64,000 nucleotides of DNA. Source: a virus (taxonomy: Duplodnaviria; Caudoviricetes). This document shows positions 1 through 64,000 of this stretch, piece by piece. Made by a program: the position numbers and the translations under genes. The stretch is from the IMG/VR virus record IMGVR_UViG_3300043499_000058, positions 31 through 64,030 of that record; one strand, written 5' to 3'. Under the pieces are notes generated by a model that saw nothing but the letters and a program-made list of their open reading frames with translations, was not told the DNA's origin and ran no database searches. Each line of letters starts with the position of its first letter. Position 1 is the stretch's first letter.

Positions 1-191
1 CTGGCGTCGGCGTTCAAAAGCGGACGCGTCCGGCGCTTCGCCTTCACGATGCACATGGGCGAGCGGGTGACGCCTCGACGCGAGGAGCAGGCGACGGCGG
101 CGGGGCGCTCGACCCGGACGGCGGGCGCGACTTCGAGCCTCGTCACGCGGTTCGTCAGGAGCGAACGGAGCAGGTTCAGCGGGTTCCTCAT
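1..191 (-). CDS. hypothetical protein, runs off the window edge (MRNPLNLLRS...)
   Basis: ATG at 191 preceded by AAGGAGG and a consensus promoter; frame open to position 1. Confidence 0.65.
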   Translation of the reverse strand, partial: MRNPLNLLRSLLTNRVTRLEVAPAVRVERPAAVACSSRRGVTRSPMCIVKAKRRTRPLLNADA

Positions 192-225
192 GGCAGTACC
201 TCCTTGCCGTAGAATGACAAAGGGG

Positions 226-254
226 ACGGTATCAGCTACCGCCCCCATTGTCAA
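226..254 (-). promoter_or_regulatory. sigma70-type promoter TTGACA-N17-TACCGT (extended -10)
   Basis: perfect -35, 17-nt spacer, TGn-TAnnnT, upstream of SD and ATG; same layout as 1600-1628. Confidence 0.8.
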
Positions 255-274
255 GTACCAATTTGTCACCCGGT

Positions 275-436
275 TCAGTCGTCGCGTTTCTTCACGTCCT
301 TCGGTTTCACATCCTCCTGAAAACCGAAACGATTGCGAACCGTGACCTTCCCCTTCACGTACCGAATGACAGTCGCCGGATGTCCGTCAACCGTCACCTT
401 GTCATCTCGTTTGAACTTCGGGCCTGTCAGGGGCAT
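275..436 (-). CDS. small beta-rich hypothetical protein (53 aa, MPLTGPKFKRDDKVTVDG...)
   Basis: hand translation; start overlaps upstream stop (TAATG) with GGAGG SD. Confidence 0.65.
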   Translation of the reverse strand: MPLTGPKFKRDDKVTVDGHPATVIRYVKGKVTVRNRFGFQEDVKPKDVKKRDD

Positions 437-705
437 TAGCGCCTCCTTTTTTTCAGTAGCTCGCGCGTTTCGTTCACGGCGGCGTACTCCTGCACCGGAT
501 AGGACGGATCGCCGTGAACGTGGAGATTGTCAGTCATGAGAATTCGGGCATCGATCTCGGCGTTGAGCGTCGGCGGGGTTGTCAGTCGTCGCCCGATCCT
601 CATAGCTCGCACCGAGATTCCGATGATGATGAGGATGAACGTAGCCACGATGACAATGAGTCCGAGCCACGCCGCTAGCGTTTCGCTGAGTGTGGGATCG
701 ACCAT
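436..705 (-). CDS. membrane protein
   Basis: one hydrophobic helix (LAAWLGLIVIVATFILIIIGI); GGGAGG SD. Confidence 0.7.
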   Translation of the reverse strand: MVDPTLSETLAAWLGLIVIVATFILIIIGISVRAMRIGRRLTTPPTLNAEIDARILMTDNLHVHGDPSYPVQEYAAVNETRELLKKRRR

Positions 706-723
706 AAGCCTCCCGAGACGGCA

Positions 724-749
724 AAGCCCCCGGCGATTGCCAGGGGCTT
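724..749 (-). terminator. intrinsic terminator-like hairpin
   Basis: AAGCCCCTGGC-AATC-GCCGGGGGCTT then T, directly after the histone-like gene. Confidence 0.65.
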
Positions 750-769
750 CACCCGCTCTCAGTTGTCAG

Positions 770-1552
770 CTACTTGCCGCGCTTGCGGCTGGCGGCGGAC
801 TTCTTGCCGGACTTCTTGGCGGGCTTCTTGGCGCTCGACTTCTTTGCCGGTGCCTTCTTGCCTGCCGACTTCGCCGGGGCGTTCTTGCGGCCTGTGGTGG
901 CCTTGGAGGTACCGCCCGAGCGGGTCGCGCCGTTGTGCTGGCCGGTGTCCTTCACGAAATCGAACTTGACGCGGGAGATGTGCCACCGCAGGAGGGTCTG
1001 AGCGTCGGCCTTGGTGCGCTTGCGGCCGTCCTCCGTCTTGGCATACATCGACTGCGCCTTGTCAGCCAGGAGCGCGTAGACCTTCTCCACGTTCCCCTTC
1101 TTGGAGCGGAGCGCCTTCATGATGACCTGGCGATTTCCACCCGACTGACCGATCCGGCTCTCGGCCGTCCAGTCGATTGATGTGTTGTCGATGGCGACAC
1201 GGCCGACGCCTGCGGGCGCGGCCTTTGTCACCTTGCGACCCTGAGCGGCCGGTCGCTTCGCCGTGCCCGACTTCGCGGACTTGGCAGGTGCCGACTTCGG
1301 GGCCGTCTTGCGCGACGTACCTGCGCTCGACTTCTTGCCTGCGGACTTCTTGCCCGCCGTCTTTGTCACCTTCGAGGTCGCGGCCGACTTGCGGCCGGAC
1401 GTTGCGCCGTTCTTGCTTCCGGCCGTCTTGCCGGAACCCGGCTTCTCGGCCTTCTTGATCGCGGTGCGAAGATCATCCTGAGACATCGCCTTGTAACCCT
1501 CGATGCCGAGGCTCTTGGCCTTCGCGCGAAGCTGAATGCTCTCGTTCGCCAT
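770..1552 (-). CDS. histone H1-like Lys/Ala-rich DNA-binding protein
   Basis: KKSA/KKPAKK repeats around a globular core; Rho-N-like N-terminus (QLRAKAKSLGIEGYKAMSQDDL); own promoter and terminator. Confidence 0.75.
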   Translation of the reverse strand: MANESIQLRAKAKSLGIEGYKAMSQDDLRTAIKKAEKPGSGKTAGSKNGATSGRKSAATSKVTKTAGKKSAGKKSSAGTSRKTAPKSAPAKSAKSGTAKRPAAQGRKVTKAAPAGVGRVAIDNTSIDWTAESRIGQSGGNRQVIMKALRSKKGNVEKVYALLADKAQSMYAKTEDGRKRTKADAQTLLRWHISRVKFDFVKDTGQHNGATRSGGTSKATTGRKNAPAKSAGKKAPAKKSSAKKPAKKSGKKSAASRKRGK

Positions 1553-1599
1553 ATCGATCACCGTCCTTTCGTTTGATTCGGGCCTGAATGACAAGAGGG

Positions 1600-1637: not shown

Positions 1638-2024
1638 TCACTTGCCTGAAATCGGCTTGGAATAGCCCTTTGTGACAACTTCGATAGCTGCCCTCCTGCG
1701 CTCACCCATGAGTGGCGCGAGCTTGTCAAGCAGCGGGAGAATGCCGACCCCACTGATTTTGATGTGGTAGGTGGTCGAATGCTTACGGTTGCGTGGAGTG
1801 ACAATGCTTGCCCTCGACGCGTCCAATAATGCAACCACCTTGTCGGCTATGTCCGCGTCCGTAGTTGTCACCTGAATCATCGGATACATACGTCCCGTCC
1901 GACCACGTTGCAATCGAAAGCAACCCTCACCTTCGAGGTACCCCGCGAGCCAATGCAAATCACGCACCGACAAACGGTGCGCATATGTCCGGCTCGGCCT
2001 TCCTGATCCGGGTCTAGCTGGCAC
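1638..2024 (-). mobile_element. free-standing single-motif LAGLIDADG homing endonuclease
   Basis: WLAGYLEGEGCF motif followed by the typical beta-strand pattern. Confidence 0.85.
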
Positions 2025-3467: not shown

Positions 3468-3767
3468 TCACCCCCCTGACTTCCGGGGTCTACCCGGACG
3501 TAGCGTTTTCAAAATCCCAACGATCTCCCTGACATGGGCGGGCGAATAAAGTCTGATTGACAATTCGCCTAGCTCATGGCGCGCAGCCTCGGGGATTGTG
3601 CCCCGGCGTTCGAGCTTGCGCAACCAGGACTCGTCCTTACCAGTCAAGACTGACAATTCTCCGAGCGTAAGGTAGTGCATGAACTTGGCGGGCTTCATGT
3701 GCCCAACCTTGATCTCGCTCGGCGGCGTGACAACCCCGCGTCCACCCCTAGCCGTCTTTCGCGCCAT
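3468..3767 (-). CDS. MerR-like HTH DNA-binding protein
   Basis: LTLGELSVLTGKDESWLRKLERRGTIP...RLYS. Confidence 0.8.
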   Translation of the reverse strand: MARKTARGGRGVVTPPSEIKVGHMKPAKFMHYLTLGELSVLTGKDESWLRKLERRGTIPEAARHELGELSIRLYSPAHVREIVGILKTLRPGRPRKSGG

Positions 3768-4066: not shown

Positions 4067-4627
4067 TCACTTTGACCCCTTTCGCTTCTTGGGCTTGGGC
4101 GCTTCTGCCACCGTCTCGCGTGACAATTGCTGACGTAGCGCCTGCTCCTCGGCGCGAGCGGCGTCGGCGTCCTGGCCCTCCTTGTATGGATACCGCTGGA
4201 TGTACGCGGCCTTCGGCTTGGACTCCAACGCGTCCTCGATCAGTTTGTCCTTGATCACGCCCTTTTTCACCAAGTCATCGATCTTGTTGGGATCGACCAC
4301 CTGCTTTGTCACCTTGAGCCAGAGCGACTTCGGAAGCAACTTCTTGAGCCGGTCAGGATTCCACGTGGTTGTATGACCCCTGATCACGGTGATCTTGTAG
4401 GTGTCCCTGAAAACGTGCTTGACATCATTCGCTGACATGAACTTGGTGATCGCGGCGTTCAAACCCCCGACCTCCTCTTTCATTGTCATGTAGTCGTACT
4501 GCTCCTCCATGTCGCGCTCGATGTCCTCGATGTCCGACTCACGTTGCTCGACCATCTCGACGGCCGCTTGCAAGTCTTTGCCGGATTCGATGAGCCACGT
4601 CCCGTCTTTTAGCTGCTTGACTGACAT
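4067..4627 (-). CDS. Mu Gam/Gp157-like coiled-coil protein
   Basis: N-terminal coiled coil; ...LKVTKQVVDPNKIDDLVKKG pattern. Confidence 0.5.
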   Translation of the reverse strand: MSVKQLKDGTWLIESGKDLQAAVEMVEQRESDIEDIERDMEEQYDYMTMKEEVGGLNAAITKFMSANDVKHVFRDTYKITVIRGHTTTWNPDRLKKLLPKSLWLKVTKQVVDPNKIDDLVKKGVIKDKLIEDALESKPKAAYIQRYPYKEGQDADAARAEEQALRQQLSRETVAEAPKPKKRKGSK

Positions 4628-5966
4628 AGTGTACCTCCTCGTTTTTCAGTTTCATGACTTTGATCCCGAGCTTCTTGTACGTCTCCTTGCGCTCCATCCA
4701 ATGTTTCCGCAGGATCGACACGGTGTCGTCCACCATGTCAATGATCGCCGCATCGGTTTTGTCATCGTGCGGTCGCAGGGCGCGGCCGATCTGCTGGATG
4801 ATCCGGCCATCGTGCTTGCCGATCCAGGCCAGGATCACGCGTGACAAAATCGGAACGTCCAGCGCCTCGTCCGCTAGCTGTGTGGCCAGGAGACACCGAA
4901 TCTCACCGGCGCGAAACTGCTCCATGATCTGCTTGCGCCTCGGGCGCGGCACCTTGCCTGTCAAGATGACAACACCACCCATGATGTCCTCGTCCAACAG
5001 CGCCATCTGATCGTAGATATTTGTCAGGTGCTTTACGCGTCGGGAGAGAACGAGGGTACTGTGACCCTTTGTCACCTGCCGTACCGCCGTCTCCGCGATC
5101 AGTCGGTTGCGCGCCGGGTCGCGTTCCATCGCAGCCTGCAACCGCATCCAATCGTAGTGACCCCGGTATGGGAACTTGAATCCAGTTTTCAGGGGTACCA
5201 CCCTGACAGGGATTGGCGAGGAAAATTTCTGGCGATAGATGACCGGCCCGAGCAGGTGCGCCATAAACGGTTGCATTCCATCAGCGCGGCTTTCAGTCGC
5301 CGTGAACCCGAGCCGGTATCGAGCAGGGCATGCATTCAGGATTAGCTCCCACGTCTCAGCCGGTGCGTGGTGCGCCTCGTCCACAACCACCCCGCCGAAT
5401 TTGTCAGCGAAGTCACGGCGGAATGTGCCCAAGTTCTGACCCACGGTCTGCACCATCGCAATTGTCACGTCCTTGACCTCCCACCGTGGCCCCTGGATCA
5501 TTCCGATCTCGGCGTTCGGAATCGCCTTCTGCGCGTACTCGACCCACTGATTGAAAATGTCCTCCGTGTGGACAAACACGATCCACGGAGTTTTCACCTT
5601 GGCGATGACTGCGAGCGCCACCTGAGTCTTGCCGAACCCTGGCTGTGCGATCACAAGCCCCTGCTCCTCGTCTAGCGCCGCCTGTGCCGCCTCCTGCTGC
5701 CCTGTACGGCCCTCAGCGCCGAGAATCGGTAGAAAGTTCAGCTTGCGCGCTCGACGTGGCAGAACGCGCTGATCGACGTAGCGCACGTGGTCAGGCAGGA
5801 GGTTCCACGCTCCCCGAGGAATCCGAACCCTTGCGCCTGACAACCGTTTGTACGTCTTGACTTCCTGTTGCTTGGCATCGAAGAAGGTCAGCTTGGAGAA
5901 CAAGCGCACCCACTCACGCTCTGACAATTCAGAAGCTTGCAGGATGATGGTGGACTTGACAATCAT
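4539..5966 (-). CDS. SF2 DEAH-box helicase
   Basis: PGFGKT, VVDEAHH, TAT, QQIGRALR motifs. Confidence 0.93.
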   Translation of the reverse strand: MIVKSTIILQASELSEREWVRLFSKLTFFDAKQQEVKTYKRLSGARVRIPRGAWNLLPDHVRYVDQRVLPRRARKLNFLPILGAEGRTGQQEAAQAALDEEQGLVIAQPGFGKTQVALAVIAKVKTPWIVFVHTEDIFNQWVEYAQKAIPNAEIGMIQGPRWEVKDVTIAMVQTVGQNLGTFRRDFADKFGGVVVDEAHHAPAETWELILNACPARYRLGFTATESRADGMQPFMAHLLGPVIYRQKFSSPIPVRVVPLKTGFKFPYRGHYDWMRLQAAMERDPARNRLIAETAVRQVTKGHSTLVLSRRVKHLTNIYDQMALLDEDIMGGVVILTGKVPRPRRKQIMEQFRAGEIRCLLATQLADEALDVPILSRVILAWIGKHDGRIIQQIGRALRPHDDKTDAAIIDMVDDTVSILRKHWMERKETYKKLGIKVMKLKNEEVHYVSQAAKRRDVAHRIRQRLASGRRDGRAT

Positions 5967-11298: not shown

Positions 11299-11499
11299 GT
11301 CCGCATCCACAGGGCCGAGATCAGGGACGCCTAGGAGATCGAGAACTGCGCGCCAGTGGCGGCACGTCTTACGCCCCGAGTACCCGTCGCAGGTGCAGCC
11401 GCCTTCAGGCCAGTCCGTAGTGACAAAGCCGAGATCGACCGTGTGCCATTCATCCGGCGCGCTTCCGCTTTGAACGAGGAAGTGTGCGCGCCCCACCAT
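11287..11499 (-). CDS. SWIM zinc-finger protein
   Basis: GCTCDGYSGRKTCRH (CxC-x-CxH). Confidence 0.75.
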   Translation of the reverse strand: MVGRAHFLVQSGSAPDEWHTVDLGFVTTDWPEGGCTCDGYSGRKTCRHWRAVLDLLGVPDLGPVDADLRN

Positions 11500-12406: not shown

Positions 12407-12531
12407 GTTTGTCCAGACAAAAACCAGGGCCGTGTCTATACCCACCGCCAAAGGCACCGACAGCCGGGATCACCTGAGCGTCATCGACATCGTGGGGACT
12501 CTGACACCTAGGGCAAGTCAAAATCTGCGCG

Positions 12532-12924
12532 TCATTTGTCACGTCGAAGCCTCTCGATCTCGGCGCGCATGAGGCCCATTTGCTTGACAATCTCCTCATG
12601 ATCTTGTAGTCGCATGACAAAGAGATGTGTCGGCCGACCACCCTCGAAGTCGATCTGCATGGCAGGTAGTTGGCCCGGTGGTGTACCGAATGCGTCCTTT
12701 GTCAGCTTCTCGAACTCGACTTTGGAGAGCGTGTAGCTCGCGCTCTTAGTTGTCCGAGCCTCGACCAAGAACCCGTTGAGGGTGACATCCCGCTTACTCC
12801 ACCACAGCCGACCCGAGTTGACCTGGCGGCGTCCACCCGAACGGCGGGCCAGCCCGGACTCCTGCCGGTCGCTGCGCTGGTTCTCTCGGGCCTCCTCCCA
12901 CGGAGTCGGCGGAACTTCAGCCAT
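12532..12924 (-). CDS. Hjc-like Holliday junction resolvase
   Basis: RRQVNSG....K.DV....LVEARTT...SYTL. Confidence 0.7.
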   Translation of the reverse strand: MAEVPPTPWEEARENQRSDRQESGLARRSGGRRQVNSGRLWWSKRDVTLNGFLVEARTTKSASYTLSKVEFEKLTKDAFGTPPGQLPAMQIDFEGGRPTHLFVMRLQDHEEIVKQMGLMRAEIERLRRDK

Positions 12925-15762: not shown

Positions 15763-15775
15763 TCGCGTGCCTCCT

Positions 15776-19354: not shown

Positions 19355-19355
19355 G

Positions 19356-20003: not shown

Positions 20004-20011
20004 GCGTCCTC

Positions 20012-20617: not shown

Positions 20618-20625
20618 GTGACCCC

Positions 20626-21090
20626 CTACTTCGACTTCTTGGCCGACGACTTCTTGCCGCCGCTCGACTTCTTGGCCTGGGCCGCTTCCTCAGCCTCGCG
20701 CTTTGCGGCCCGCTCTGCGGCCTTGCGCTGACGCTCCTTGGCCTCTGCGATCAGCCGCTTGCCCGCCTTGTCAGTCGGCTCGGGCGCTGCCTCCTTCACG
20801 CGCTTGACAACACCCGCCTTGACTCTGACCTTGGCAGGCGTGGGGTCAAGCCACTTCTCCTCGCCGGTCGCGCGATCCGTGCCCTTGCGCTTCGGCTTGG
20901 CCGGGATTCCTACCGGCGTGAGGTTGACGAGGCCGAACAGCGACACCTTGTCACCCTCGGCAATCGTCTCCTCGATGACGCTTGACAACGAGTCGATGAA
21001 GTCCTTGGCGTTCTTCTTGGGAATGCGAAGGTCGTCCTCCATGACTTCGAGCGTCTTGTTGAGCAACTGAGCCTGTGTGAGTGTGGGCAT
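20626..21090 (-). CDS. HU/IHF-like DNA-binding protein with Lys-rich tail
   Basis: GDKVSLFGL..L....PAKPKRKG....TGE. Confidence 0.88.
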   Translation of the reverse strand: MPTLTQAQLLNKTLEVMEDDLRIPKKNAKDFIDSLSSVIEETIAEGDKVSLFGLVNLTPVGIPAKPKRKGTDRATGEEKWLDPTPAKVRVKAGVVKRVKEAAPEPTDKAGKRLIAEAKERQRKAAERAAKREAEEAAQAKKSSGGKKSSAKKSK

Positions 21091-21130
21091 ATTTGTCACC
21101 CGCCCTTTCTGCTAGAGGTTTAATACGTGA

Positions 21131-21164
21131 TCTGCGGGAAGGTCATGACGACGCTTCCCGCAGA
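21131..21164. promoter_or_regulatory. 11-bp inverted repeat in the leader of the HU gene
   Basis: TCTGCGGGAAG-N12-CTTCCCGCAGA. Confidence 0.55.
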
Positions 21165-21193: not shown

Positions 21194-22453
21194 CTACTTG
21201 CCCGACTTCTTGCCGCCCTTCTTGCCACCGGACTTCTTGCCGCCCTTGCCCTTTTTCTCCTCGACCGGCTCGGGAAAGACGGACGCGAGCATGTCGCCGT
21301 CGTCGTCCTTGGCAGCGGTGATCTTCACCTGCTGGCCTTCCTTGTAGTCGTCCATGTCCAGTTCCTTCCAGTCACGGCCGTTGTCATCTTCGCCGTCATC
21401 GAGGAAGAACAGGTCGAACTCCGTCCCGTCCTCCGTCTCGACTGTCAGGGTGTCCTCCTCCGAGTTGACGCTGGTGATTGTCACCAACTCCTCGTCGTAG
21501 GAATCTTCGGCGTAACCGGCCTCCGGCTCGGCCTCAGCCTCACCGACCTCGGACACCACGAAATCGCCATCGTCGTCCTTCTCGAAGCTGACAACGATCT
21601 CGTCGCCCTTCTTGTTTTCGGTGAGATCGACTTCATCGGTGCCATAGATGTCGAACTCCGTGCCCTCGTCACCGACCATGACCGTGAGGATGTTGTCCTT
21701 CTTCTTGGCCTTGACAACCGTGACAGTCAGTTCGTCGGCGTCGTCGGCTTCCTCGGGGTCGAACTCGTCCGCGTCGGGTTCCGGCTCCTCATCGGCAGGC
21801 TTGCCCTTCTTGGACTTCGAGGACTTGCCGCCCTTCGGCTCCTCGTCGTCGTCGTCCTTCTTTTTGTCATCGTCCTCCTCCATCGCATCCGAGGCGTCCA
21901 TCTCCTGCATGACGCGGCGCATCTGCTTGGTCGCCATCTTTTCGAGCATGTCGTCATCGACATCCTTGAGAGCGGCCTTCAGTTCCGCCTTTGTCAGCTT
22001 CTCGTTCTTGTTGCGGATCGAATACTTCCCGTTCCCTTCGAGCCGCTTGATCTTGAACTTCTGCCCGAGGACGTTTTCATCCTCGTACTTCATGTCCACG
22101 AACTCTTGCAGGACGTAGTAGTTGATCGTGAACACCTTGACTTCGCCATCGATCAACCACAGCGTCTTGGCGCGGGTGGAGGCATTGTCACCCTCCTCGC
22201 ACAGCGGGCAGTCGTCGCCGCCAGCGCACGGGCAGTAGCCCGTAGCGGGGGTGTAATGCTCGAAGTATTCGTACCACCCCGGATTGTCACCGACTTCGGG
22301 ATCGGGGATGAACAGCGCATACCCCTCGAAGAAGTCGTTGGTCTTTTTCAGGGTGATGAATCCACCACGCCCTGCATTGCGATCCTCAGCCGAGGTTACG
22401 CGGCGCGGTGTGAGAGTCTTGCTGCCTTTAGCCAATTGGCACCTTCCTTTCAT
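21194..22453 (-). CDS. ssDNA-binding (gp32-like) protein with acidic repeated C-terminal domains
   Basis: H...C..DDCPLC Zn site, acidic tail, position after primase; start uncertain. Confidence 0.6.
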   Translation of the reverse strand: MKGRCQLAKGSKTLTPRRVTSAEDRNAGRGGFITLKKTNDFFEGYALFIPDPEVGDNPGWYEYFEHYTPATGYCPCAGGDDCPLCEEGDNASTRAKTLWLIDGEVKVFTINYYVLQEFVDMKYEDENVLGQKFKIKRLEGNGKYSIRNKNEKLTKAELKAALKDVDDDMLEKMATKQMRRVMQEMDASDAMEEDDDKKKDDDDEEPKGGKSSKSKKGKPADEEPEPDADEFDPEEADDADELTVTVVKAKKKDNILTVMVGDEGTEFDIYGTDEVDLTENKKGDEIVVSFEKDDDGDFVVSEVGEAEAEPEAGYAEDSYDEELVTITSVNSEEDTLTVETEDGTEFDLFFLDDGEDDNGRDWKELDMDDYKEGQQVKITAAKDDDGDMLASVFPEPVEEKKGKGGKKSGGKKGGKKSGK

Positions 22454-23483
22454 TACGACGTTCGGGCTTTGTCACTTTCAGATCGATACCACGTTCGCGG
22501 AGTCTCCGCTTGAACGCTGACAACGAGATTGCGTTTTCGATGATGCGCCAACTCTCCTTTCCTGTCAATTCTGCCGGGTCGCCTTTCCCCTTCGGGTACA
22601 GGCACACGAAGTTCGGAATGCTTGTCAGTTTCTCCGAGGCCATGATGATGTTTTTCACCCCGGCCCCGTCTCTATCGAACATGTGGTAGATGCGCTTCGG
22701 GCGAAAGCTGCGAATGATCTGAGCCTGTCTGTCTGACAAACCTGTTCCGAGAATTCCACCTGCCGGTACCCCGTACTCCTGCTGGCAGATCGTGTCCAGC
22801 GATCCCTCCACAAGAACGAGGCCGAGAGAGGATACCTGCTTCCTGTCCAACTTGCAAGCGCCGAACAGAACGGCCGTCTTGGTGGCTCCCTCGGGCCAGT
22901 AGAGGTATTTCGGCCAGTCCTTCTCACGCACAGCGCGCTTGATCAGGAACCGGGTGATCCCTCGTTCATCGTCGGCGGGGATGACAATGCGCCGGTCGTC
23001 AGCGTCCCACCCAAGCCCCCACGCAGAGATCGCGCCTCCTCCAATGCCGCGCGTCTCAAGGTACTCAAGCGCGACGGCAGGCAGGTACCGATCAAAGCTG
23101 CCGAGATCCTCGGGTTTGTCAGGAGCATCGACCGGCCGAGCAAGCCTAACCTTCCCGTCAGTTCCACGCCGCTTTCGTTTCGACGCAGGGCCAAGCTCAA
23201 CCCTTGTGTGTCGAACGATAAGTTTGCGAGCTTCTTTTTCACTGATCCCCTTGATCTTGGCGATGGCCTTCTCGTACGTGCCTGAAATCCCACAGGACGC
23301 GAAGCAATGAACGAGAGGCTTATCGAGGTTTACCTGAAAATGCCGCTTGTTCGATCCATGCTCCGGGTTCGGACAAACTACCAGGGGCGCGAACCCACCT
23401 GACAAGTCAGCGTTGGGCGGGAAGTCTACGAACTCCTCCCACAACGCCGCGCCATCGAGTTTGCGCCCCCGGTAGTTGATCAC
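22428..23483 (-). CDS. DNA primase (Zn-binding plus TOPRIM)
   Basis: CP..H...HCF.C, LVEGSLD, FDRDGAG, KGDP. Confidence 0.9.
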   Translation of the reverse strand: MINYRGRKLDGAALWEEFVDFPPNADLSGGFAPLVVCPNPEHGSNKRHFQVNLDKPLVHCFASCGISGTYEKAIAKIKGISEKEARKLIVRHTRVELGPASKRKRRGTDGKVRLARPVDAPDKPEDLGSFDRYLPAVALEYLETRGIGGGAISAWGLGWDADDRRIVIPADDERGITRFLIKRAVREKDWPKYLYWPEGATKTAVLFGACKLDRKQVSSLGLVLVEGSLDTICQQEYGVPAGGILGTGLSDRQAQIIRSFRPKRIYHMFDRDGAGVKNIIMASEKLTSIPNFVCLYPKGKGDPAELTGKESWRIIENAISLSAFKRRLRERGIDLKVTKPERRNERKVPIG

Positions 23484-38185: not shown

Positions 38186-38187
38186 TG

Positions 38188-40383
38188 TCACCTACCCCCT
38201 TGCGGCCCACGCCGCTGCGCTTTCTTTTGGCCTCGGAATCGCGGAGCGCCCTGCACGTTGTCAAGCTTGACCGGCAAGTAGGGTTCCTTGTTTGCGATGC
38301 GAAGCAGTTTGTCAAGATCCGCAGTCGGGACAAGGTGGACGGTGACGCCTGCCTCGCCCTGGATGTGAACACCGCCACCCCGACTCGGCCGTGCTGACAA
38401 TCCACGATCCAACCGCTTGAGCCGAGCTTCAGCCGTCGCCGCTGAGATGTACCGATGCGAAAACGCTGACAATACCTCTTGCTGATCGTCGGTCGGGCCT
38501 TCGTGGAATGACAATCCAGTAGCCCGAGTCGAACGACCGAGCTTTGCAAGGAACGGGAAGCCCTTTGGCACCCGGCGTGCATCGCCTGAAGCGATTGCTC
38601 GCCTTGTGAATTCGTCCTGAAGCTGCTGCGCCGCGATGGGGGTTCCCAAAAGCGCCGCCGTTGCCCCTGTCGCTTTCAGTCCAGTCGCCAGGTTCTTTCT
38701 GCTCCACAGCGGCACCACCGGAGGCTTAGTCGTGCCGCCGCCAGTACCCGTCCCTGTCGGTGCGCCAGGCATGAACCATGAGAGCGGATCGATGACAACC
38801 CAATACGGGTTCGAGCGCGAGCCTGAACGTGTTTGTCCTTCGCCTGTAGCTGAAAACGCCCCGAGTCCAGAACCGACGACTGACGCCGCCGCAAGCTGCG
38901 GTGCCCGCGTTGCGAGGCCAGGGAAACGGCCCATGATGTTTTTCAGGCCAGGGATGCGCGCTGCGCCCTTCCCGAGCATTCCGACGATCCCCGCGCCGAA
39001 GATCAGCCTAGAGGCCAACGCTGCCCCGCCTACGGCCCCCACAGCCCCCGTAACGGCCGACGGGTTCTGATCGGTAATCCAATCACCAATCCGGTTGATC
39101 TGCATGGCGATGGGCCGCAGCGCCGGGTCAGCACCGCGAGCAACTGTCAGGCCCACGTTGCGCTGAATCTGCCCAAGCTGCTGATACGCCCTTTGTCTGT
39201 TTCGCTGCTCGGCCATCTGCTTGCCAAGCTCCGCGTCTTTGGCTTTGTTGATCCCGTCAACGAATTTTTCAAGCGCCGGGATTCCACCCTGCGCCATGAG
39301 GTTGAGGAACTGCCTGAAAGATTCCTGACGGCCAAAGAGCTTCGAGGCCAATGTCAGGTTGATACCTGACGCACCCGAGCCAGCGATAGCCGCGTCGTCG
39401 TCCAAGCCCTCGACACCGAGCGCCATCGGGTTCGAGAAGCGAGCGCCATTCGGGGCTACCGCCTGCATCATCTTCTGAAGCACCTGAAAACCGCCAAGCG
39501 CGCGCAGTTGCGACGGGTCAGTTGGCAGACCGGCCTGCCGAAACGCTTTCATCTGATCGTCGGTCTGCGGCCGGATGATCTCGGACGCGAGCAACTGCGT
39601 CACGCCTCGACCGATGACAGCCGGTGAACCACCGGAGCGAGCCGCGAGTCCGTACACGGCCCAAATCTGCTCGGGGGTCATGCGCGATGCGGTCTGCGCG
39701 GCACCGAGTCGGCCAATGTCACGCGCGATGTCCTCACCGCGAACAGTAGGCGTCTCTTGCAGAACGCGAGCGATGATGTCACGCATACGTGCGCCCTGAG
39801 CGCCAATGTCACGCGGCGTACCGGGAGGGGTGGCACCGATGATCATTCCGGCGACACCACCGCCGAGCGCCTGCGGGTCTGCACCTTCCGCGAACATCGA
39901 GATTTCAGCCATCGTCTTTGCGTATTTGTCAAGCATGTTGAGTCCACGCTGACCACGTACGTCGTCACCGAACGATGAGTAGAAGCGGATCATGTGCTGC
40001 TGGATGTCATCGACGGCGATCCCGAATCGGTTGCTCAGGTCGATGGCGATGTCGCCAACCTGATTCAAGCCGCGCCCGAGACTTGTCAGTTTGCCGTTGG
40101 AATCGATCTCTCCCGCAAGCGCATCAATTTCACCCAGGCGGTCAAGGAACTGGCCGAGGCCACTGACAGCGGACGCTGTTGCGTACACCGTGGCCCCGGC
40201 CAGCGCGTATCTGATCGTCGTACCGACCGCGCGCATCTGCTGACCCCACAGCCCGAGGTTGCGCGTGTGCGAACGAACCTGCCGGTCGAAACCGACAAGC
40301 CCGCCGATGTTCCGCTCGATGTCAGCCCGAAGCTGCGCACCGTGCGAAGTCCAGATGAGATTAAGTCTGTAGTCAGACGACAC
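38188..40383 (-). CDS. tape measure protein
   Basis: 731 aa, Ala/Gly-rich helical, after the tail chaperones. Confidence 0.85.
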   Translation of the reverse strand: MSSDYRLNLIWTSHGAQLRADIERNIGGLVGFDRQVRSHTRNLGLWGQQMRAVGTTIRYALAGATVYATASAVSGLGQFLDRLGEIDALAGEIDSNGKLTSLGRGLNQVGDIAIDLSNRFGIAVDDIQQHMIRFYSSFGDDVRGQRGLNMLDKYAKTMAEISMFAEGADPQALGGGVAGMIIGATPPGTPRDIGAQGARMRDIIARVLQETPTVRGEDIARDIGRLGAAQTASRMTPEQIWAVYGLAARSGGSPAVIGRGVTQLLASEIIRPQTDDQMKAFRQAGLPTDPSQLRALGGFQVLQKMMQAVAPNGARFSNPMALGVEGLDDDAAIAGSGASGINLTLASKLFGRQESFRQFLNLMAQGGIPALEKFVDGINKAKDAELGKQMAEQRNRQRAYQQLGQIQRNVGLTVARGADPALRPIAMQINRIGDWITDQNPSAVTGAVGAVGGAALASRLIFGAGIVGMLGKGAARIPGLKNIMGRFPGLATRAPQLAAASVVGSGLGAFSATGEGQTRSGSRSNPYWVVIDPLSWFMPGAPTGTGTGGGTTKPPVVPLWSRKNLATGLKATGATAALLGTPIAAQQLQDEFTRRAIASGDARRVPKGFPFLAKLGRSTRATGLSFHEGPTDDQQEVLSAFSHRYISAATAEARLKRLDRGLSARPSRGGGVHIQGEAGVTVHLVPTADLDKLLRIANKEPYLPVKLDNVQGAPRFRGQKKAQRRGPQGGR

Positions 40384-61976: not shown

Positions 61977-62283
61977 TGTCACCACCCCCTTCAGGAGTCC
62001 AGATTCGGCCAGTACCGTCGGCCTTCTCCATGATCTTTTTCACTGTGTAGCCATCGAGCCGGTTGAACGTTATCGCCATCTTGCGGTTCGCGTGCTGGAT
62101 CGTGGCATCGCTCGGCTGCATCGGTGCCTGGGTGAGCGCCTGCCATTCGTAGTACGCGGCCAAGAATGCGATCACTTTGTCATCGTAGACCCCGATGAAC
62201 TCCATCTCGCCGTCCTGGGCATTGAGCTTGGTGATGTCACCCGGTTTAATGTAAGCCGGTGGGTAGGTCTTTTTTTCAGCCAT
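61966..62283 (-). CDS. hypothetical protein
   Basis: packed ORF. Confidence 0.55.
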   Translation of the reverse strand: MAEKKTYPPAYIKPGDITKLNAQDGEMEFIGVYDDKVIAFLAAYYEWQALTQAPMQPSDATIQHANRKMAITFNRLDGYTVKKIMEKADGTGRIWTPEGGGDNVG

Positions 62284-62491
62284 TCGACTCACGCTTGTAG
62301 ACGACGCGGCCATACATGACAGCGTTACCGTCCTCGTCACGCATTGGGACAATGATTTTGTCAGTCTGTACCCATGAACCATCGTCGTACGCCTGAAAAC
62401 GATCAAGGACGGCTGCGACTTCCTCGTTCAGCGCCTCCTCGACGTTCTCCTCGTTCTGATCCTCTGCCTCGAATCGAAAGCGTGTGATCAC
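62276..62491 (-). CDS. small acidic protein
   Basis: GGAGGAGG SD, GTGA coupling. Confidence 0.6.
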   Translation of the reverse strand: MITRFRFEAEDQNEENVEEALNEEVAAVLDRFQAYDDGSWVQTDKIIVPMRDEDGNAVMYGRVVYKRESNG

Positions 62492-62754
62492 AGCTTGCCC
62501 TCCTCCTTTGCGATGTTGAGCGCCCGCCTGACAAGTTCCCAGGGGTGGTAGGCCAGACGCGGGTAGTCTCTGACAATGACTTGTCGTTTGCGACCCCCAC
62601 GCCGCTTCTTGAAGATCCGGCAGCGATACGTTCCCCGATTCCCGCGAGTGGTCAACGTTCCCCACACGTCGTTGTCGAACAGTAACTCACCCAACAGTTG
62701 ATTGTCAGGCCCGTCAAAGCCACCTGGCAGAAGCTCCATCCGAACGCGGATCAC
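62488..62754 (-). CDS. hypothetical protein
   Basis: coupled ORF. Confidence 0.65.
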   Translation of the reverse strand: MIRVRMELLPGGFDGPDNQLLGELLFDNDVWGTLTTRGNRGTYRCRIFKKRRGGRKRQVIVRDYPRLAYHPWELVRRALNIAKEEGKL

Positions 62755-63062
62755 AGGTCATCTCTCCGATGTTCCAGTTCAGTTGTCAGGTTCTCGATCT
62801 CAGCCTTCAACTCGCGGCGCTCGTTGTCCCACCCCGTCTTGGCCGCGAGCCAGAACCGAAGCATGGCAACCAACATGCTCGCTCCTTCTGAATGCGTGCG
62901 CCGCCAGTCATTGTCACCGAGATACACCCAGACATCGGTGCTTGTGACCGCGATCTCGCCTCTCTTTGGTTCGCCATAGAACGGCTCGATGAGATGGTTG
63001 TCACCACCATTGAAAACGCGCCAGGCGTCTCGACCTTCGACTTTGAGTTGTGGGTTATCCAA
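62751..63062 (-). CDS. hypothetical protein with C-terminal coiled coil
   Basis: GGAGGAGG SD before TTG. Confidence 0.55.
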   Translation of the reverse strand: MDNPQLKVEGRDAWRVFNGGDNHLIEPFYGEPKRGEIAVTSTDVWVYLGDNDWRRTHSEGASMLVAMLRFWLAAKTGWDNERRELKAEIENLTTELEHRRDDL

Positions 63063-63426
63063 TGTCAGCCTCCTCCATGTAAGGGATTCCGCGCTCGCCG
63101 CAGAACCACAGGTGATCCGGTGGAATGACCGTGTAGACCTTGACTTCCTCGATTTTGTCACCCCAGGTCGGCCGCACGTGAACCTCGGCGCGCTCGGGCA
63201 GGTACACCTGCCACAAGTCCCACCGTTCGATCTCTGTCTGCGGCCCGAAGGCTCCTGACAACCCCCAAGCCATGCTCGGAGTCGGAGACAAGGAGATGTA
63301 GGGCAACGTGAGCGCCCCGTCATCGGCCCACGCTACTGTCACCTGCTGATACGGCTTCAGGCCACCCGAGCGAATCTTCTTGCGCCGTTCAGTGGGCGAC
63401 CAGTGAAAAAGCGGTTCAAGTCTCAC
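63055..63426 (-). CDS. ADP-ribosyltransferase-fold protein
   Basis: LFHWS...I...GL.P...ISLS...EE.KV...IPP. Confidence 0.65.
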   Translation of the reverse strand: MRLEPLFHWSPTERRKKIRSGGLKPYQQVTVAWADDGALTLPYISLSPTPSMAWGLSGAFGPQTEIERWDLWQVYLPERAEVHVRPTWGDKIEEVKVYTVIPPDHLWFCGERGIPYMEEADIG

Positions 63427-63635
63427 AGGCTACGCAAGTGGCGCTCGAAGTGAGAGTTGCACAGGCAGACTGGCGACCGCTTCTCGCGGATCGTTGCGAT
63501 GGCCTTGTCAGCCGTCCAATCCTTCCACATCATGAGCGCCCGCGCCGCGACCGACTTCATTCCACCTGAAAAACCGAAGTCACCCCGATACGTGTTCCCG
63601 AATCTGCCCTTTGCTTTGCCATCCAGTTCGGCCAT
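63423..63635 (-). CDS. hypothetical protein (MAELDGK...)
   Basis: GGGAGG SD. Confidence 0.55.
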   Translation of the reverse strand: MAELDGKAKGRFGNTYRGDFGFSGGMKSVAARALMMWKDWTADKAIATIREKRSPVCLCNSHFERHLRSL

Positions 63636-63742
63636 CCGGCCTCCCTTCTCGCCCTTCCGGGCTTTGTCAGACGCTACAGGGGCGGGGCACTTGAGCGAAC
63701 CCCACCCCCGAGCGCGGAGGTACCATGAACACCACTGACCCG

Positions 63743-63934
63743 TTACAACGCGACGAGCCGAGCGCGACCATTGGACTGTAGCACTTTCGCGCCGGGGAGG
63801 ATGCCGTACTCCATGAACCGCCGCCAGCGCGTATTGTGGCGCAACTGGCAGGCTCGACAGTCGAGCGAGTACGAATCGACCGGCCCGCCGCAACCAACAC
63901 ACAGGCCCGCCGCTCGCGCCGAGTAGTTAACCAT
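63743..63934 (-). CDS. small Zn-finger-like protein
   Basis: CVGCG...CRAC..H. Confidence 0.55.
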   Translation of the reverse strand: MVNYSARAAGLCVGCGGPVDSYSLDCRACQLRHNTRWRRFMEYGILPGAKVLQSNGRARLVAL

Positions 63935-64000
63935 GACGCCGACCCCGCGATCAAGCGCCCGCTCTCCTCGTTCGACACGCTGAAAAATCGCGTTCGAGTG

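What the first reader, a model, noticed from the sequence alone, without database searches (positions are those of the whole stretch)
1..64000. Genome saturated with a non-palindromic hexamer TGACAA/TTGTCA on both strands
Seen: counting by eye gave 8, 9, 7, 9 and 6 copies in the first five kb, 6 in 17001-18000 (inside dnaE) and 7 in 47041-47900. At an assumed 60% GC about 0.3 per kb is expected, so enrichment is roughly 20-25 fold, extrapolating to several hundred sites. A variant TGAAAA/TTTTCA is also conspicuous, giving consensus TGAMAA. Sites occur in both orientations and in several reading frames. They are written into proteins with codons normally rare at high GC (TTG TCA, GTG ACA, GAT GAC AA), and even the homing endonuclease ORFs carry them (5 in 37775-38191). 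Knowledge: comparable saturation is known for DNA uptake sequences, cyanobacterial HIP1 and Chi. Mycobacteriophage L5 stoperators contain TGTCAA but are 13 bp, oriented and far fewer. Inference: a second code laid over the coding sequence. It could be a binding lattice for a phage or host protein that coats, silences or protects the genome (candidates here: H1-like 770-1552, HU, MerR-like), a titration decoy for a host regulator or sigma region 4 (the motif matches TTGACA at 5 of 6 positions in either direction), or a DNA-modification target.
Basis: partly seen in the sequence, partly recalled or inferred. Interest (0 to 1): 0.92.

Follow-up and report, generated by a model that had tools for sequence, protein, structure and literature searches.

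The report
Evenly spaced private hexamer lattice in phage
A 64-kb soil phage and its relatives keep a six-letter DNA word about every 110 bases, in either direction and evenly spaced, so some still unidentified protein probably reads it all along the double helix.

Summary
TGACAA/TTGTCA occurs 425 times in 64 kb, 21 times base expectation, and is the commonest hexamer. With proteins and codon usage held fixed, CDS hold 385 sites against 67±7. TGAAAA (162 copies) is an interchangeable variant.

Sites are under-dispersed: variance/mean is 0.39 and 0 of 128 500-bp windows are empty. They exclude each other below about 40 bp across orientations and across the two words.

Against a relative at 73% nt identity, sites stay in place twice as often as control hexamers. 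At unchanged amino acids the figures are 88% against 45%.

The trait is clade-wide but the word drifts, to TGAAAA, TGAAAT(T), TGTAAT(T), TGGAAT and TGCCAA. 72 outgroup loci lack it. The rest of the MAG holding the closest relative is not enriched.

Orientation-blind spacing argues against primase, Chi or RNA signals. No methyltransferase or transglycosylase was found.

Best reading (about 45%): a binding lattice for a phage-encoded duplex DNA-binding protein. Candidates are a conserved MerR-type winged helix with an AT-hook (3468-3767) and an H1-like protein (770-1594).

This scan has noted private-word saturation in other phages. My searches found no published description.

The parts
1..64000 (.). 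Genome-wide lattice of the asymmetric word TGAMAA. There are 425 TGACAA/TTGTCA and 162 TGAAAA/TTTTCA sites. Mean spacing is 109 bp (CV 0.62), and both orientations and all permitted frames are used.
3468..3767 (-). 99-aa stand-alone MerR-type winged-helix protein with basic tails and a C-terminal GRPR (AT-hook core). It is conserved in 7 of 7 complete clade genomes. It is the leading candidate reader, but this is not shown.
   Evidence: AF2 model with core pLDDT 84-91. Foldseek top hits are MerR-type wHTH chains including RacA-DNA 5i44 and BldC-DNA 6ama/6amk, all weak (E 0.014-0.12; none of the 500 listed reaches E 0.001). Profile against PDB: 4ua1, E 4.2e-4. Pfam MerR_1 in 4 of 6 members, below the curated cut-off. 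Orthologues.
770..1594 (-). 274-aa 'H1-like' protein. It has an N-terminal SAP/Rho_N helix pair, a disordered Lys/Ala/Ser-rich linker, a 3-helix globular domain (residues 154-217) and a basic tail. It is conserved in 6 of 7 complete genomes and is a candidate partner or coat protein.
   Evidence: Pfam Rho_N E 9.7e-5, below cut-off. Model. Best structural match Z 6.1, not convincing. Orthologues.
20626..21099 (-). HU-like protein with a Lys/Ala-rich C-terminal tail, conserved in the clade. It is an unlikely specificity determinant.
   Evidence: Pfam Bac_DNA_binding E 7.6e-8. The arm is nearly identical in L063 (TGAAAT) and L064 (TGACAA+TGCCAA).
22428..23483 (-).
   Evidence: Pfam Toprim_2 E 4.7e-7. 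Conserved in the clade. The hypothesis is disfavoured by orientation-blind spacing.
38793..39926 (.). Longest stretch without TGACAA/TTGTCA (1133 bp), inside the tape-measure gene. It is partly filled by five TGAAAA-type sites. The orthologous C84 gene also holds two of that genome's largest gaps.

Best explanation
The hexamer is a selected recognition lattice. One TGAMAA site is kept about every 110 bp along the whole phage chromosome. It is read on double-stranded DNA without regard to orientation by a sequence-specific protein that belongs to this phage clade and whose specificity drifts between lineages.

The most likely reader is a small monomeric DNA-binding protein. My leading candidate is the conserved stand-alone MerR-type winged-helix protein with an AT-hook (3468-3767). 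It would nucleate or position the phage's other basic nucleoid-type proteins, the H1-like SAP protein (770-1594) and the tailed HU-like protein (20626-21099). The phage DNA would then be coated, organised or marked as self at regular intervals.

Shown: the enrichment, DNA-level selection on individual sites, even spacing, orientation- and word-interchangeability, the clade-wide occurrence with a drifting word, and its absence from outgroup phages and from the candidate host MAG.

For: (1) DNA-level selection.
- 385 sites in CDS against 67±7 under a protein- and codon-preserving shuffle.
- 112 of 225 aligned sites are identical in place in the relative C84, against 54.6 expected from control hexamers.
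- At unchanged amino acids, 92 of 104 (88%) are identical against 45% of controls.
- Replicated with another word in G008 vs G009: 24 of 38 (63%) against 26%.

(2) Lattice behaviour.
- 500-bp windows have variance/mean 0.39, and 0 of 128 are empty.
- For TGACAA/TTGTCA alone, 11 gaps are under 30 bp against about 77 expected, and 10 exceed 400 bp against about 29 expected.
- For the TGAMAA set, 11 gaps exceed 300 bp against 37 expected.

(3) Duplex-level, orientation-blind reading.
- Sites with a nearest neighbour under 40 bp are depleted across orientations: 0.085 against 0.230 (z -5.4), and for TGAMAA z -7.2.
- The same holds across the two words (z -7.2).
- Combined spacing (CV 0.62) is more regular than either orientation alone (0.75-0.84).
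- Of the 138 TGAMAA sites lost in C84, the replacement within 45 nt was of opposite orientation only in 41, same orientation only in 28, both in 1 and absent in 68.
- Lost sites have a C84-only site within 45 nt in 70 of 138 cases (51%). Baselines are 26-38%, and kept sites show 9 of 169 (5%).

(4) Sharp six-position specificity with one degenerate position. Single-substitution neighbours sit at about 0.1-1.7 times expectation, except TGAAAA (11x), TGACAT (3.8x) and TGTCAA (4.4x, which overlaps TTGTCAA). Flanks carry no information. This is typical of one protein domain in one turn of the major groove.

(5) Private and drifting.
- Words are TGACAA/TGAAAA (G000, C84), TGAAAA (G007), TGAMAW (G011), TGAAAT(T)/TGTAAT(T)/TGGAAT (G008-G010) and TGACAA+TGCCAA (L064/L028).
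- TG is invariant in all of them.
- 72 outgroup DnaE loci show no such word.
- The MAG holding C84 has 543 copies in about 4.43 Mb outside that contig, near the reversed-word control of 535 for the whole MAG. C84 alone has 369 copies in 70.8 kb.

(6) A candidate reader exists.
- The MerR-type wHTH protein is present in 7 of 7 complete genomes with an invariant GRP core, and its fold and profile match.
- Solved stand-alone relatives read short asymmetric words as single protomers. BldC reads AATTxxxx(C), using a minor-groove AT-rich contact plus recognition-helix contacts (passages of PMC5859096).
- RacA coats and compacts DNA, and one arginine on its recognition helix reads the terminal TG steps of TGACGCCGGCGTCA (passages of PMC4914108).

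(7) No DNA-modifying enzyme was found.
Against: No binding was tested, and no tool here can dock protein on DNA.

The recognition helix of the MerR-type protein does not track the word cleanly. G007 (TGAAAA) and G008 (TGAAAT/TGTAAT) have almost the same helix, and so do G009 and G011, whose words differ. Only about seven independent genomes were available, so covariation could not be tested with phylogenetic control.

The Foldseek matches are weak (E 0.014 or worse), and the Pfam MerR hits are below the curated cut-offs.

The H1-like globular domain has no convincing structural match (best Z 6.1).

There is no helical (10.5 bp) phasing, which a tightly wrapped array might show.

Lattice regularity is weak or absent in two clade genomes. 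G011 has variance/mean 0.98, and G010 has a cross-orientation z of +0.7.

In G000 vs G007, whose preferred word differs, conservation at unchanged amino acids is barely above control (39% against 34%).

A reader that is a novel modification enzyme or a host protein would give the same sequence statistics.
Confidence: 0.45

Rival explanations
1. The word is the target of a covalent DNA modification (methylation, a hypermodified base, a backbone change or a nick). A phage or host enzyme with an asymmetric 6-bp specificity would write it. The genome is saturated so that a protective mark lies within about 100 bp of every position.
For: An asymmetric 6-bp site with one degenerate position and stepwise drift of single positions is typical of type IIG/III-like specificities (my own knowledge, not tested). 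A mark would be orientation-blind and would favour even coverage. G at position 2 is strictly required.
Against: None of PF01555, PF02384, PF00145, PF02086 or PF01702 matches G000 in six frames, while 10-14 of 14 control genomes ring. PF01555 is absent from 5 of 5 further complete clade genomes. Pfam scans of 60 ORFs found no modification enzyme, nor did a PHROGs scan of 10 ORFs, all but two of them also among those 60. A mark at one base per 110 bp protects no other sequence from ordinary restriction enzymes. About 40 ORFs have no recognisable family, so a novel enzyme remains possible.
Confidence: 0.17
2. The word is a self-identity tag in the manner of DNA uptake sequences. A phage machine that works on stretches of a few hundred bp needs at least one word per stretch, so it acts on phage DNA and spares or ignores host DNA. 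Candidates are a host-DNA-degrading helicase-nuclease, the recombination module or the packaging initiator. This concerns function and can coexist with the best explanation as to the reader.
For: The behaviour matches USS/DUS, which are over-represented, occur in both orientations and are more evenly spread than random (passage of PMC2817400; passage of PMC1939737). Density differs 43-fold between the phage contig (5.2/kb) and the rest of the MAG (0.12/kb). The word is private and drifts between lineages. The clade conserves an SF2 helicase, a PD-(D/E)XK nuclease, RecA and a resolvase. Accessory genes without a C84 orthologue carry the word at full density (9.0/kb against 8.7/kb), and homing-endonuclease ORFs carry more (12.1/kb).
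Against: No machine with such a requirement is known in phages, to my knowledge. Translocating nucleases that read a word (RecBCD-Chi) are orientation-dependent, whereas this lattice is not. Nothing here links the helicase or the nuclease to the word.
Confidence: 0.15
3. The word is bound by a host protein (a nucleoid protein, regulator or defence sensor) that the phage recruits or titrates. The different words of relatives would then reflect different hosts.
For: The word differs between relatives whose GC ranges from 46% to 60%, which hints at different hosts. The statistics cannot tell a phage reader from a host reader.
Against: The sigma-70 -35 decoy version is not supported. T precedes TGACAA less often than chance (67 of 425), and most TTGACA copies are by-products. 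The one candidate host MAG shows no enrichment. Gradual single-position drift along the phage phylogeny suits a co-inherited reader better than host switches. The hosts are unknown, so this remains open.
Confidence: 0.08
4. The word is a strand-specific signal. It could be a template start site for the phage DnaG-type primase (read as 5'-TTGTCA-3', as T7 reads GTC) or a Chi-like stop signal for a host helicase-nuclease.
For: The phage encodes its own primase and DnaB. On the complementary strand every clade word ends in CA-3'. That could be a cryptic nucleotide plus the initiating nucleotide, as in T7 and SP6 primase sites (recalled, not checked). Chi-rich lambdoid phages exist (PMC12315714, search listing and start of the abstract only).
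Against: A strand-specific reader predicts that each orientation keeps its own spacing, independent of the other. Instead the two orientations exclude each other (z -5.4 to -7.7 in G000 and C84). Lost sites are replaced by opposite-orientation sites at least as often as by same-orientation sites (41 against 28). Combined spacing is more regular than either orientation alone. There is no orientation switch along the genome. The candidate host MAG is not enriched.
Confidence: 0.06
5. The word has no function. It would be a by-product of codon or dipeptide usage, or of a neutral context-dependent mutation bias.
For: A few neighbours are mildly depleted (for example TCACAA 0.4x and TGACAC 0.4x of order-2 expectation), as a biased repair process might produce.
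Against: The enrichment survives all three shuffles (z 46-71). Sites are conserved at synonymous positions. The sites are under-dispersed and exclude each other, which a mutation bias cannot produce. The word differs between close relatives. Outgroup phages and the candidate host lack it.
Confidence: 0.02

Closest known systems
DNA uptake sequences (USS of Pasteurellaceae, DUS of Neisseriaceae)
   Same: A non-palindromic word, hugely over-represented, in similar numbers in both orientations and more evenly spread than random. It is written into proteins and differs between related lineages (passages of PMC2817400 and PMC1939737). The behaviour here is the same.
   Different: USS/DUS are 9-12 bases at about one per kb in bacterial chromosomes, are under-represented in coding DNA and are read by the competence uptake machinery. 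Here the word is 6 bases at about 9 per kb, sits in a phage, is nearly as dense in genes as outside them, and has an unknown reader.
Stoperators of Cluster A mycobacteriophages (L5 repressor gp71)
   Same: An asymmetric word dispersed over a phage genome and bound by a monomeric phage HTH protein (passages of PMC9283540). That the specificity evolves between relatives I know from the title and abstract start of PMC6550527 and from recall.
   Different: Stoperators are 13-mers, number a little over twenty per genome, lie in promoters and short intergenic spaces, and have an orientation tied to transcription that is needed for function. Here there are 587 six-base sites, about 90% inside genes, and orientation is irrelevant.
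Stand-alone MerR-type winged-helix architectural proteins: BldC, RacA, lambda Xis
   Same: The 99-aa protein has the same fold class and lacks the MerR coiled coil. BldC protomers read a short directional word with an AT-rich minor-groove element. RacA binds many chromosomal sites, coats and compacts DNA, and reads TG steps of a word starting TGAC.
   Different: BldC and RacA act at tens of sites. BldC uses direct repeats 9-10 bp apart, and RacA uses a 14-bp palindrome. Neither has a genome saturated with its word. Binding of the phage protein to TGAMAA is untested.
Chi sites, including Chi-rich lambdoid phages
   Same: A short over-represented word that protects or directs the processing of DNA. 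Some phages are rich in it (PMC12315714, listing and abstract start only).
   Different: Chi works in one orientation and is defined and shared by the host genome (my own knowledge). This lattice is orientation-blind and is absent from the candidate host MAG.
Other 'private word' saturations noted in this scan (AGTACT in jumbo phages, AGACA, GATATT, GGGGTA, TTTAG)
   Same: A phage- or element-specific short word, selected and evenly spaced, with an unknown reader. In one case the relatives each carry their own variant (AI notes, not checked by me).
   Different: Those words are palindromic or strictly strand-specific, or sparser. This one is asymmetric yet orientation-blind, is the densest of them, and has a documented stepwise drift of the word across seven complete genomes.

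Membership tests
Chi-like signal | It works in one orientation only, so each orientation should keep its own spacing. | tested here: not met
   Cross-orientation exclusion has z -5.4 to -7.7. Replacements are opposite-orientation in 41 cases and same-orientation in 28.
Chi-like signal | The same word is over-represented in the host chromosome. | tested here: inconclusive
   The MAG holding C84 has 543 copies in about 4.43 Mb outside the phage contig, against a reversed-word control of 535 for the whole MAG. The host assignment rests on binning only.
DNA uptake sequence (USS/DUS) | Over-represented, found in both orientations, and more evenly spread than random. | tested here: met
   The feature itself is taken from PMC2817400.
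DNA uptake sequence (USS/DUS) | Read by the DNA-uptake machinery of a naturally competent bacterium; a 9-12-mer at about one per kb. | tested here: not met
   This is a phage genome, and the word is exactly 6 bp at 9.2/kb. Uptake cannot be tested here.
Stoperator/operator array (Cluster A mycobacteriophages) | A 13-mer asymmetric site. | tested here: not met
   No information lies outside the six positions (at most 0.09 bits), and the 7-mers are explained by the 6-mer.
Stoperator/operator array (Cluster A mycobacteriophages) | Orientation is tied to the direction of transcription, and the sites lie in promoters and short intergenic spaces. | tested here: not met
   All genes lie on one strand, yet the sense-strand counts are 229 against 196, and both orientations are equally conserved (0.54 and 0.46). 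383 of the 425 sites lie wholly inside coding ORFs.
Primase recognition site (T7 gp4 / DnaG type) | It acts on one template strand, so spacing should be kept per strand. | tested here: not met
   cross-orientation exclusion and replacement, and combined spacing that is more regular than either strand alone.
Primase recognition site (T7 gp4 / DnaG type) | A trinucleotide core with a cryptic 3' nucleotide. | tested here: inconclusive
   On the complementary strand every clade word ends in CA-3'. This is compatible with the feature but not specific to it.
Restriction-modification or DNA-modification target | A cognate modifying enzyme is encoded by the phage. | tested here: inconclusive
   The five enzyme families are absent in six-frame scans. 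PF01555 is absent in 5 of 5 other complete genomes. None was found in the 60 ORFs scanned. Novel or host enzymes are not excluded.
Restriction-modification or DNA-modification target | A modified base or backbone is present at the word. | not testable with these tools
   Only assembled contigs of the runs are held, with no raw reads.
HIP1-type highly iterated palindrome | A palindromic word. | tested here: not met
   TGACAA is not its own reverse complement, and neighbouring sites pair in random orientation.
Stand-alone MerR-type wHTH (BldC/RacA/Xis-like), for ORF 3468-3767 | A MerR-type winged helix-turn-helix fold. | tested here: met
   The model core has pLDDT 84-91. The top Foldseek hits are all MerR-type wHTH, though weak (E 0.014-0.17). 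The profile hits MerR-family regulator 4ua1 at E 4.2e-4.
Stand-alone MerR-type wHTH (BldC/RacA/Xis-like), for ORF 3468-3767 | No coiled-coil dimerisation domain or effector domain. | tested here: met
   The protein has 99 residues. After the wing there is one 13-residue helix and then a basic tail.
Stand-alone MerR-type wHTH (BldC/RacA/Xis-like), for ORF 3468-3767 | It binds the repeated DNA word. | not testable with these tools
   No protein-DNA prediction or assay is available. The comparison of helix against word was not clean.

The most novel reading that the evidence does not exclude
This phage clade writes the positions of its own chromatin into its genome. A private six-letter word every 110 bp or so seats a phage-encoded winged-helix/AT-hook protein, which with H1-like and HU-like partners builds a regular nucleoprotein array. 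The array would mark phage DNA as self and shield it from host nucleases. Because the word and its reader drift together, each lineage holds a private code that could also act as a barrier, or a recognition system, between co-infecting relatives.
Probability: 0.3. Interest if true: 0.9.

Novelty: categorically new. Interest (0 to 1): 0.8.

Why it matters
If a phage genome carries a dense, evenly spaced and orientation-blind word under site-by-site selection, then about a tenth of its sequence serves a second code that standard annotation does not see. A third of all TCA and ACA codons and a third of the TGA stops in this genome exist inside the word.

The code is private to a lineage and drifts in steps. 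That offers a natural experiment on how a DNA-binding specificity and hundreds of its sites co-evolve. It could also become a practical tag for assigning metagenomic contigs to a phage lineage and for separating phage from host DNA in bins. The 70.8-kb contig in an Acidobacteria MAG stands out 43-fold.

The scan has met similar private words in unrelated phages, so this may be one instance of a general, undescribed layer of phage genome organisation. This clade is favourable for solving it: the signal is very strong (z above 50), seven complete genomes with four or more word variants are at hand, and the list of conserved candidate readers is short.

Tried and rejected
Nearest annotated phages. 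A distant BLAST of window 15001-23000 against 50,697 phage records found 42 records, each covering about 2% of the query (the DnaE gene, 68-71% identity; Streptomyces, Mycobacterium and Saccharomonospora phages). That gave no usable relative.

Scans with single proteins or thin alignments found nothing: the primase in viral contigs, the primase in five relatives' records and the two-sequence DnaE alignment.

The metagenome scan with the DnaE alignment added only short clade contigs (L138-L145, L148, L151), and I did not analyse them further.

The scan of 401 genomes of the phylum of G006 with the TerL profile found 14 with a match, but only G006 holds a close relative. So there was no second host-linked copy.

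Sequencing runs: 6 rows from 2 studies, all soil metagenomes and all held as assembled contigs. No RNA holder is listed. I did not use read laying, because contigs cannot show nicks, read ends or modification.

HU-like protein as the specificity determinant: rejected as the leading candidate, because L063 and L064 have nearly the same arm but different words.

The 419-aa protein next to the primase looked by eye like a gp32-type SSB (zinc knuckle, long acidic tail), so I dropped it as a reader without a test.

Structure search for the H1-like globular domain gave a best Z of 6.1 (NAB2 N-terminal domain), which is within the noise for helical domains. The ESM Atlas gave feature scores of 0.85 to unnamed clusters, which is a lead only.

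Helical phasing: no 10.5-bp periodicity in any of the 4 genomes tested. A 3-bp codon period appears only in G000 and C84, above the shuffle threshold only in G000 (114.6 against 105.8; C84 105.1 against 106.7). G007 and G008 peak elsewhere, below threshold.

Tie to gene starts, as in another note on this genome: no peak at starts. The one peak lies in the 15 nt after stop codons, because 19 of 54 TGA stops begin a word.

Compensation statistic. My first contrast (56 of 105 lost sites against 4 of 120 kept sites) overstated the effect, because a partner-only site lies within 45 nt of 26-38% of random aligned positions. Against those baselines the effect is 70 of 138 (51%), which is real but moderate. 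In G008 vs G010 there was no contrast (54% against 49%).

Literature. Searches (terms as listed in those calls) gave no paper describing this word or an orientation-blind hexamer lattice in a phage. For them I saw only listings and abstract starts. Supplementary files were not opened.

I did not use complex prediction, the search of protein representatives or the listing of cluster members.

Full report
WHAT THE WINDOW IS

The window is all but 30 bases of a single 64,030-bp virus record. It has 58.4% GC. Essentially all long ORFs lie on the minus strand: my crude caller gives 97 ORFs covering 92%.

Pfam and PHROGs identify the following genes:
- a replication and recombination module of the phage's own: DnaE 16052-19354, DnaB 24239-25615, a Toprim primase 22428-23483, RecA 13935-15020, an SF2 helicase 4539-5966, a PD-(D/E)XK nuclease 11450-12457, a resolvase 12532-13011 and an HU-like protein 20626-21099;
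- tail and baseplate genes, and an amidase;
- several homing-endonuclease ORFs.

The annotated phage collection holds no close relative.

THE OBSERVATION

The window holds 196 TGACAA and 229 TTGTCA.
- The total of 425 compares with 20.4 expected from base composition and 47.8 from an order-2 Markov chain (z 54.5).
- It is the commonest hexamer in a 58% GC genome.
- Longer words are fully explained by the hexamer, and flanks carry at most 0.09 bits.
- Of the 18 single-substitution neighbours, only TGAAAA is strongly enriched (162 copies, 11x). TGACAT reaches 3.8x. TGTCAA reaches 4.4x, but it overlaps TTGTCAA. The rest sit at 0.1-1.7x.

With every protein and every gene's codon usage held fixed, 300 shuffles give 67.2±6.9 sites in CDS, with a maximum of 91, against 385 observed.

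The word sits in every frame that does not create an in-frame stop, and it is slightly denser outside genes. It accounts for 36% of all TCA codons and 33% of all ACA codons, and 19 of 54 TGA stop codons begin a word.

SELECTION ON THE DNA WORD ITSELF

A profile scan of one genome per prokaryote species found a much closer relative, with TerL 83% identical. It lies on a 70.8-kb contig (here C84) binned into an uncultured Acidobacteria MAG. C84 is collinear with the window but circularly permuted. The two share 60 reciprocal-best genes. C84 carries TGACAA 369 times (18x) and TGAAAA 224 times (17x), at a flat density from end to end.

I compared 45 codon-aligned gene pairs (36.1 kb, 73% nt identity, 56% at third positions).
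- 112 of 225 word sites are identical in place, against 54.6 expected from all other hexamer windows.
- Where the overlapping amino acids are unchanged, 92 of 104 sites (88%) are nucleotide-identical, against 45% of controls.
- Both orientations are equally conserved (0.54 and 0.46), and so is TGAAAA (0.54 and 0.62).

The test replicates with a different word. In G008 vs G009 (TGAAAT/TGTAAT, 58% nt identity), the figures at unchanged amino acids are 24 of 38 (63%) against 26%. It is weak in G000 vs G007, whose preferred words differ (39% against 34%).

A LATTICE, NOT JUST AN ABUNDANCE

Sites are far more regular than random.
- For TGACAA/TTGTCA alone, 11 gaps are under 30 bp against about 77 expected, and 10 exceed 400 bp against about 29 expected.
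- For the TGAMAA set, mean spacing is 109 bp with CV 0.62. In 500-bp windows the mean is 4.6 and the variance 1.8, and 0 of 128 windows are empty.
- The gap histogram shows soft exclusion below about 40 bp, an excess at 50-130 bp, and 11 gaps over 300 bp where 37 are expected.
- There is no helical phasing, no association with gene starts and no trend along the genome.

THE KEY DISCRIMINATING RESULT

The exclusion works across orientations and across the two words.
- The fraction of sites with an opposite-orientation neighbour within 40 bp is 0.085, against 0.230 for random placement (z -5.4). For TGAMAA the z is -7.2.
- TGAAAA sites avoid TGACAA sites (z -7.2).
- Combined spacing is more regular than that of either orientation alone.
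- Of 138 TGAMAA sites lost in C84, the replacement within 45 nt is of opposite orientation only in 41, same orientation only in 28, both in 1 and absent in 68.

Against proper baselines the local replacement is moderate. 70 of 138 lost sites (51%) have a partner-only site within 45 nt. The figure is 26-38% for random aligned positions and 5% (9 of 169) for kept sites.

So one site of either orientation and either word satisfies the local need. That is what a reader of duplex DNA predicts. It is not what a strand-specific reader predicts, whether a primase template site, a Chi-like signal or an RNA signal.

A CLADE-WIDE TRAIT WITH A DRIFTING WORD

34 viral contigs whose TerL is 44-56% identical (best tblastn segment; the last five match only part of the protein) also have saturating words, but other ones. 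The words are TGAAAT(T), TGTAAT(T), TGGAAT, TGAATT and TGAAAA, and two contigs carry TGACAA with or without TGCCAA.

Through a DnaE alignment I obtained the replication modules of eight clade members and 72 outgroup phage loci. The outgroups have no such word. Their top z per square root of kb has a median of 1.3 and a maximum of 2.4, against 2.1-6.8 in the clade.

Seven complete genomes show stepwise drift with phylogenetic distance:

| Genome(s) | Words |
|---|---|
| G000, C84 | TGACAA above TGAAAA |
| G007 | TGAAAA (322) above TGACAA (113) |
| G011 | TGAMAW |
| G008, G009 | TGAAAT(T) and TGTAAT(T) |
| G010 | TGAAAT, TGGAAT, TGTAAT |
| L064 (replication-module locus, not one of the seven complete genomes) | TGACAA and TGCCAA |

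Only the leading TG and the A at position 5 are constant.

Under-dispersion and cross-orientation exclusion recur in G000, C84, G007 and G008, and more weakly in G009. They are weak or absent in G011 and G010.

NOT A HOST SIGNATURE, AS FAR AS CAN BE TOLD

The whole MAG holds 912 copies, of which 369 lie on C84. That leaves 543 in about 4.43 Mb (0.12/kb), against 5.2/kb on the phage contig. The reversed-word control for the whole MAG is 535.

The host assignment rests on binning only. No further clade member was found in the 400 other genomes sampled from that phylum.

WHO READS IT

No methyltransferase or transglycosylase family is detectable. The non-structural proteins conserved across the clade are listed. 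Among them are three nucleoid-type DNA binders.

(a) The HU-like protein has a Lys/Ala tail. Its DNA-binding arm is nearly identical in two phages with different words, so it probably does not set the specificity.

(b) The 274-aa protein has a SAP/Rho_N helix pair, a confident three-helix globular domain and two long disordered basic tails. This architecture recalls linker histones, but no convincing structural match was found. Its tails carry RGRP AT-hooks in G008, G009 and G011, but not in G000, C84 or G010.

(c) The 99-aa protein is present in 7 of 7 complete genomes, always with a C-terminal GRP core.
- Its model is a winged helix-turn-helix.
- Its best Foldseek matches are all MerR-type DNA-binding domains. 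They include the stand-alone proteins RacA and BldC bound to DNA, at weak E-values of 0.014-0.12.
- The family profile hits a MerR-family regulator at E 4.2e-4 and aligns the conserved arginine of I-R-x-L-E to the MerR I-R-Y-Y-E.

From the passages I read:
- Each BldC protomer recognises a directional AATTxxxx(C) word through a narrowed AT-rich minor groove plus two recognition-helix residues (PMC5859096).
- RacA coats and compacts DNA, and one arginine on its recognition helix reads the terminal TG steps of TGACGCCGGCGTCA (PMC4914108).

A monomeric protein of this class is therefore a structurally reasonable reader of an asymmetric word with an invariant TG and an A/T-rich tail.

The evidence stops there. 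The recognition helix is identical in G000 and C84, which share a word. But it is also nearly identical in G007 and G008, and in G009 and G011, whose words differ. Seven genomes are too few for a controlled covariation test. The route to more genomes was closed.

MOST LIKELY MECHANISM

I put about 45% on a phage-encoded duplex DNA-binding protein that occupies the lattice and, with the basic H1-like and HU-like proteins, coats or organises the phage chromosome at roughly 110-bp intervals.

The purpose is inferred only. It could be protection, compaction, global control of access, or a self mark.

The rivals are:
- a covalent modification target (17%);
- a self-identity tag for a phage machine, in the manner of uptake sequences (15%), which can overlap with the main reading;
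- a host-protein site (8%);
- strand-specific priming or Chi-like signals (6%);
- no function (2%).

COMPARISON WITH WHAT IS KNOWN

In population-genetic behaviour the closest known thing is the DNA uptake sequence, which is over-represented, occurs in both orientations and is more even than random (PMC2817400 passage). That is a longer and sparser bacterial word read by the competence machinery.

The closest phage precedent is the stoperator array. It has a little over twenty 13-mers, lies in promoters and short intergenic spaces, and has an orientation tied to transcription (PMC9283540 passages). All three of those defining features fail here.

Chi, primase sites and HIP1 each fail a defining feature that I tested (see the membership table).

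My literature searches found no description of this word or of an orientation-blind hexamer lattice in a phage. I saw listings and abstract starts only.

Earlier AI notes of this scan report private-word saturation in other, unrelated phages. The general phenomenon therefore recurs, although I did not check those notes.

VERDICT

The feature is real, strongly selected, clade-wide and not explained by any known system.

Noticed in passing
window 21194-22453 (-): The 419-aa protein between the primase and the HU-like gene has an N-terminal CxC...CxxC zinc knuckle and a very long acidic region ending in a basic tail. By eye it resembles a gp32-type single-strand-binding protein. It is conserved in all seven complete clade genomes. 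Pfam gives only a sub-threshold CusF hit.
   Followed up: no
window 1638-2024, 25712-26038, 37775-38191, 40373-40744 and other small ORFs: Homing-endonuclease ORFs carry the word at the highest density in the genome: 12.1/kb over eight ORFs, and up to 16.8/kb. These ORFs are AT-richer (52% GC). Genes without a C84 orthologue are as saturated as shared genes (9.0/kb against 8.7/kb).
   Followed up: partly
window 38188-40383 (tape-measure gene) and its C84 orthologue: The largest word-free stretches of both genomes fall in the tape-measure gene. In G000 the gaps lie at 39485-39926 and 38940-39266. In C84 the gaps measure 549 and 389 bp.
   Followed up: no
L044, L046-L049 (G006 contig C84): A 70.8-kb contig binned into an Acidobacteria MAG is, from end to end, a phage genome collinear with the window and circularly permuted relative to it. 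The word density alone separates it 43-fold from the rest of the bin. A stretch at about 14.4-16.6 kb of C84, with genes that lack G000 orthologues, holds three of its eight largest word gaps.
   Followed up: partly
window 20626-21099 (-) and orthologues: The HU-like arm tip is the canonical R-N-P-x-T-G in the distant clade members. In G000 the intercalating proline is replaced. A Lys/Ala-rich C-terminal tail is present only in the G000, C84, L058, L059 and L065 lineage.
   Followed up: no
window 770-1594 (-) and orthologues in L224, L229, L234: The basic tails of the H1-like protein carry two to four RGRP AT-hook cores in G008, G009 and G011, and none in G000, C84 or G010. In the other genomes the gene lies next to the 99-aa MerR-type gene.
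   Followed up: partly
whole window: GATC (1114 copies) and TCGA (1092) are the commonest tetramers, at 2.3-2.4 times base expectation but close to order-2 expectation. GC skew is negative in every 4-kb window, which is consistent with all genes lying on one strand.
   Followed up: no
window, gene ends: 19 of the 54 TGA stop codons are the first three letters of a TGAMAA word. This gives the only positional peak in the metagene profile: 26 sites/kb in the 15 nt after stops, against a genome mean of 9.2.
   Followed up: yes
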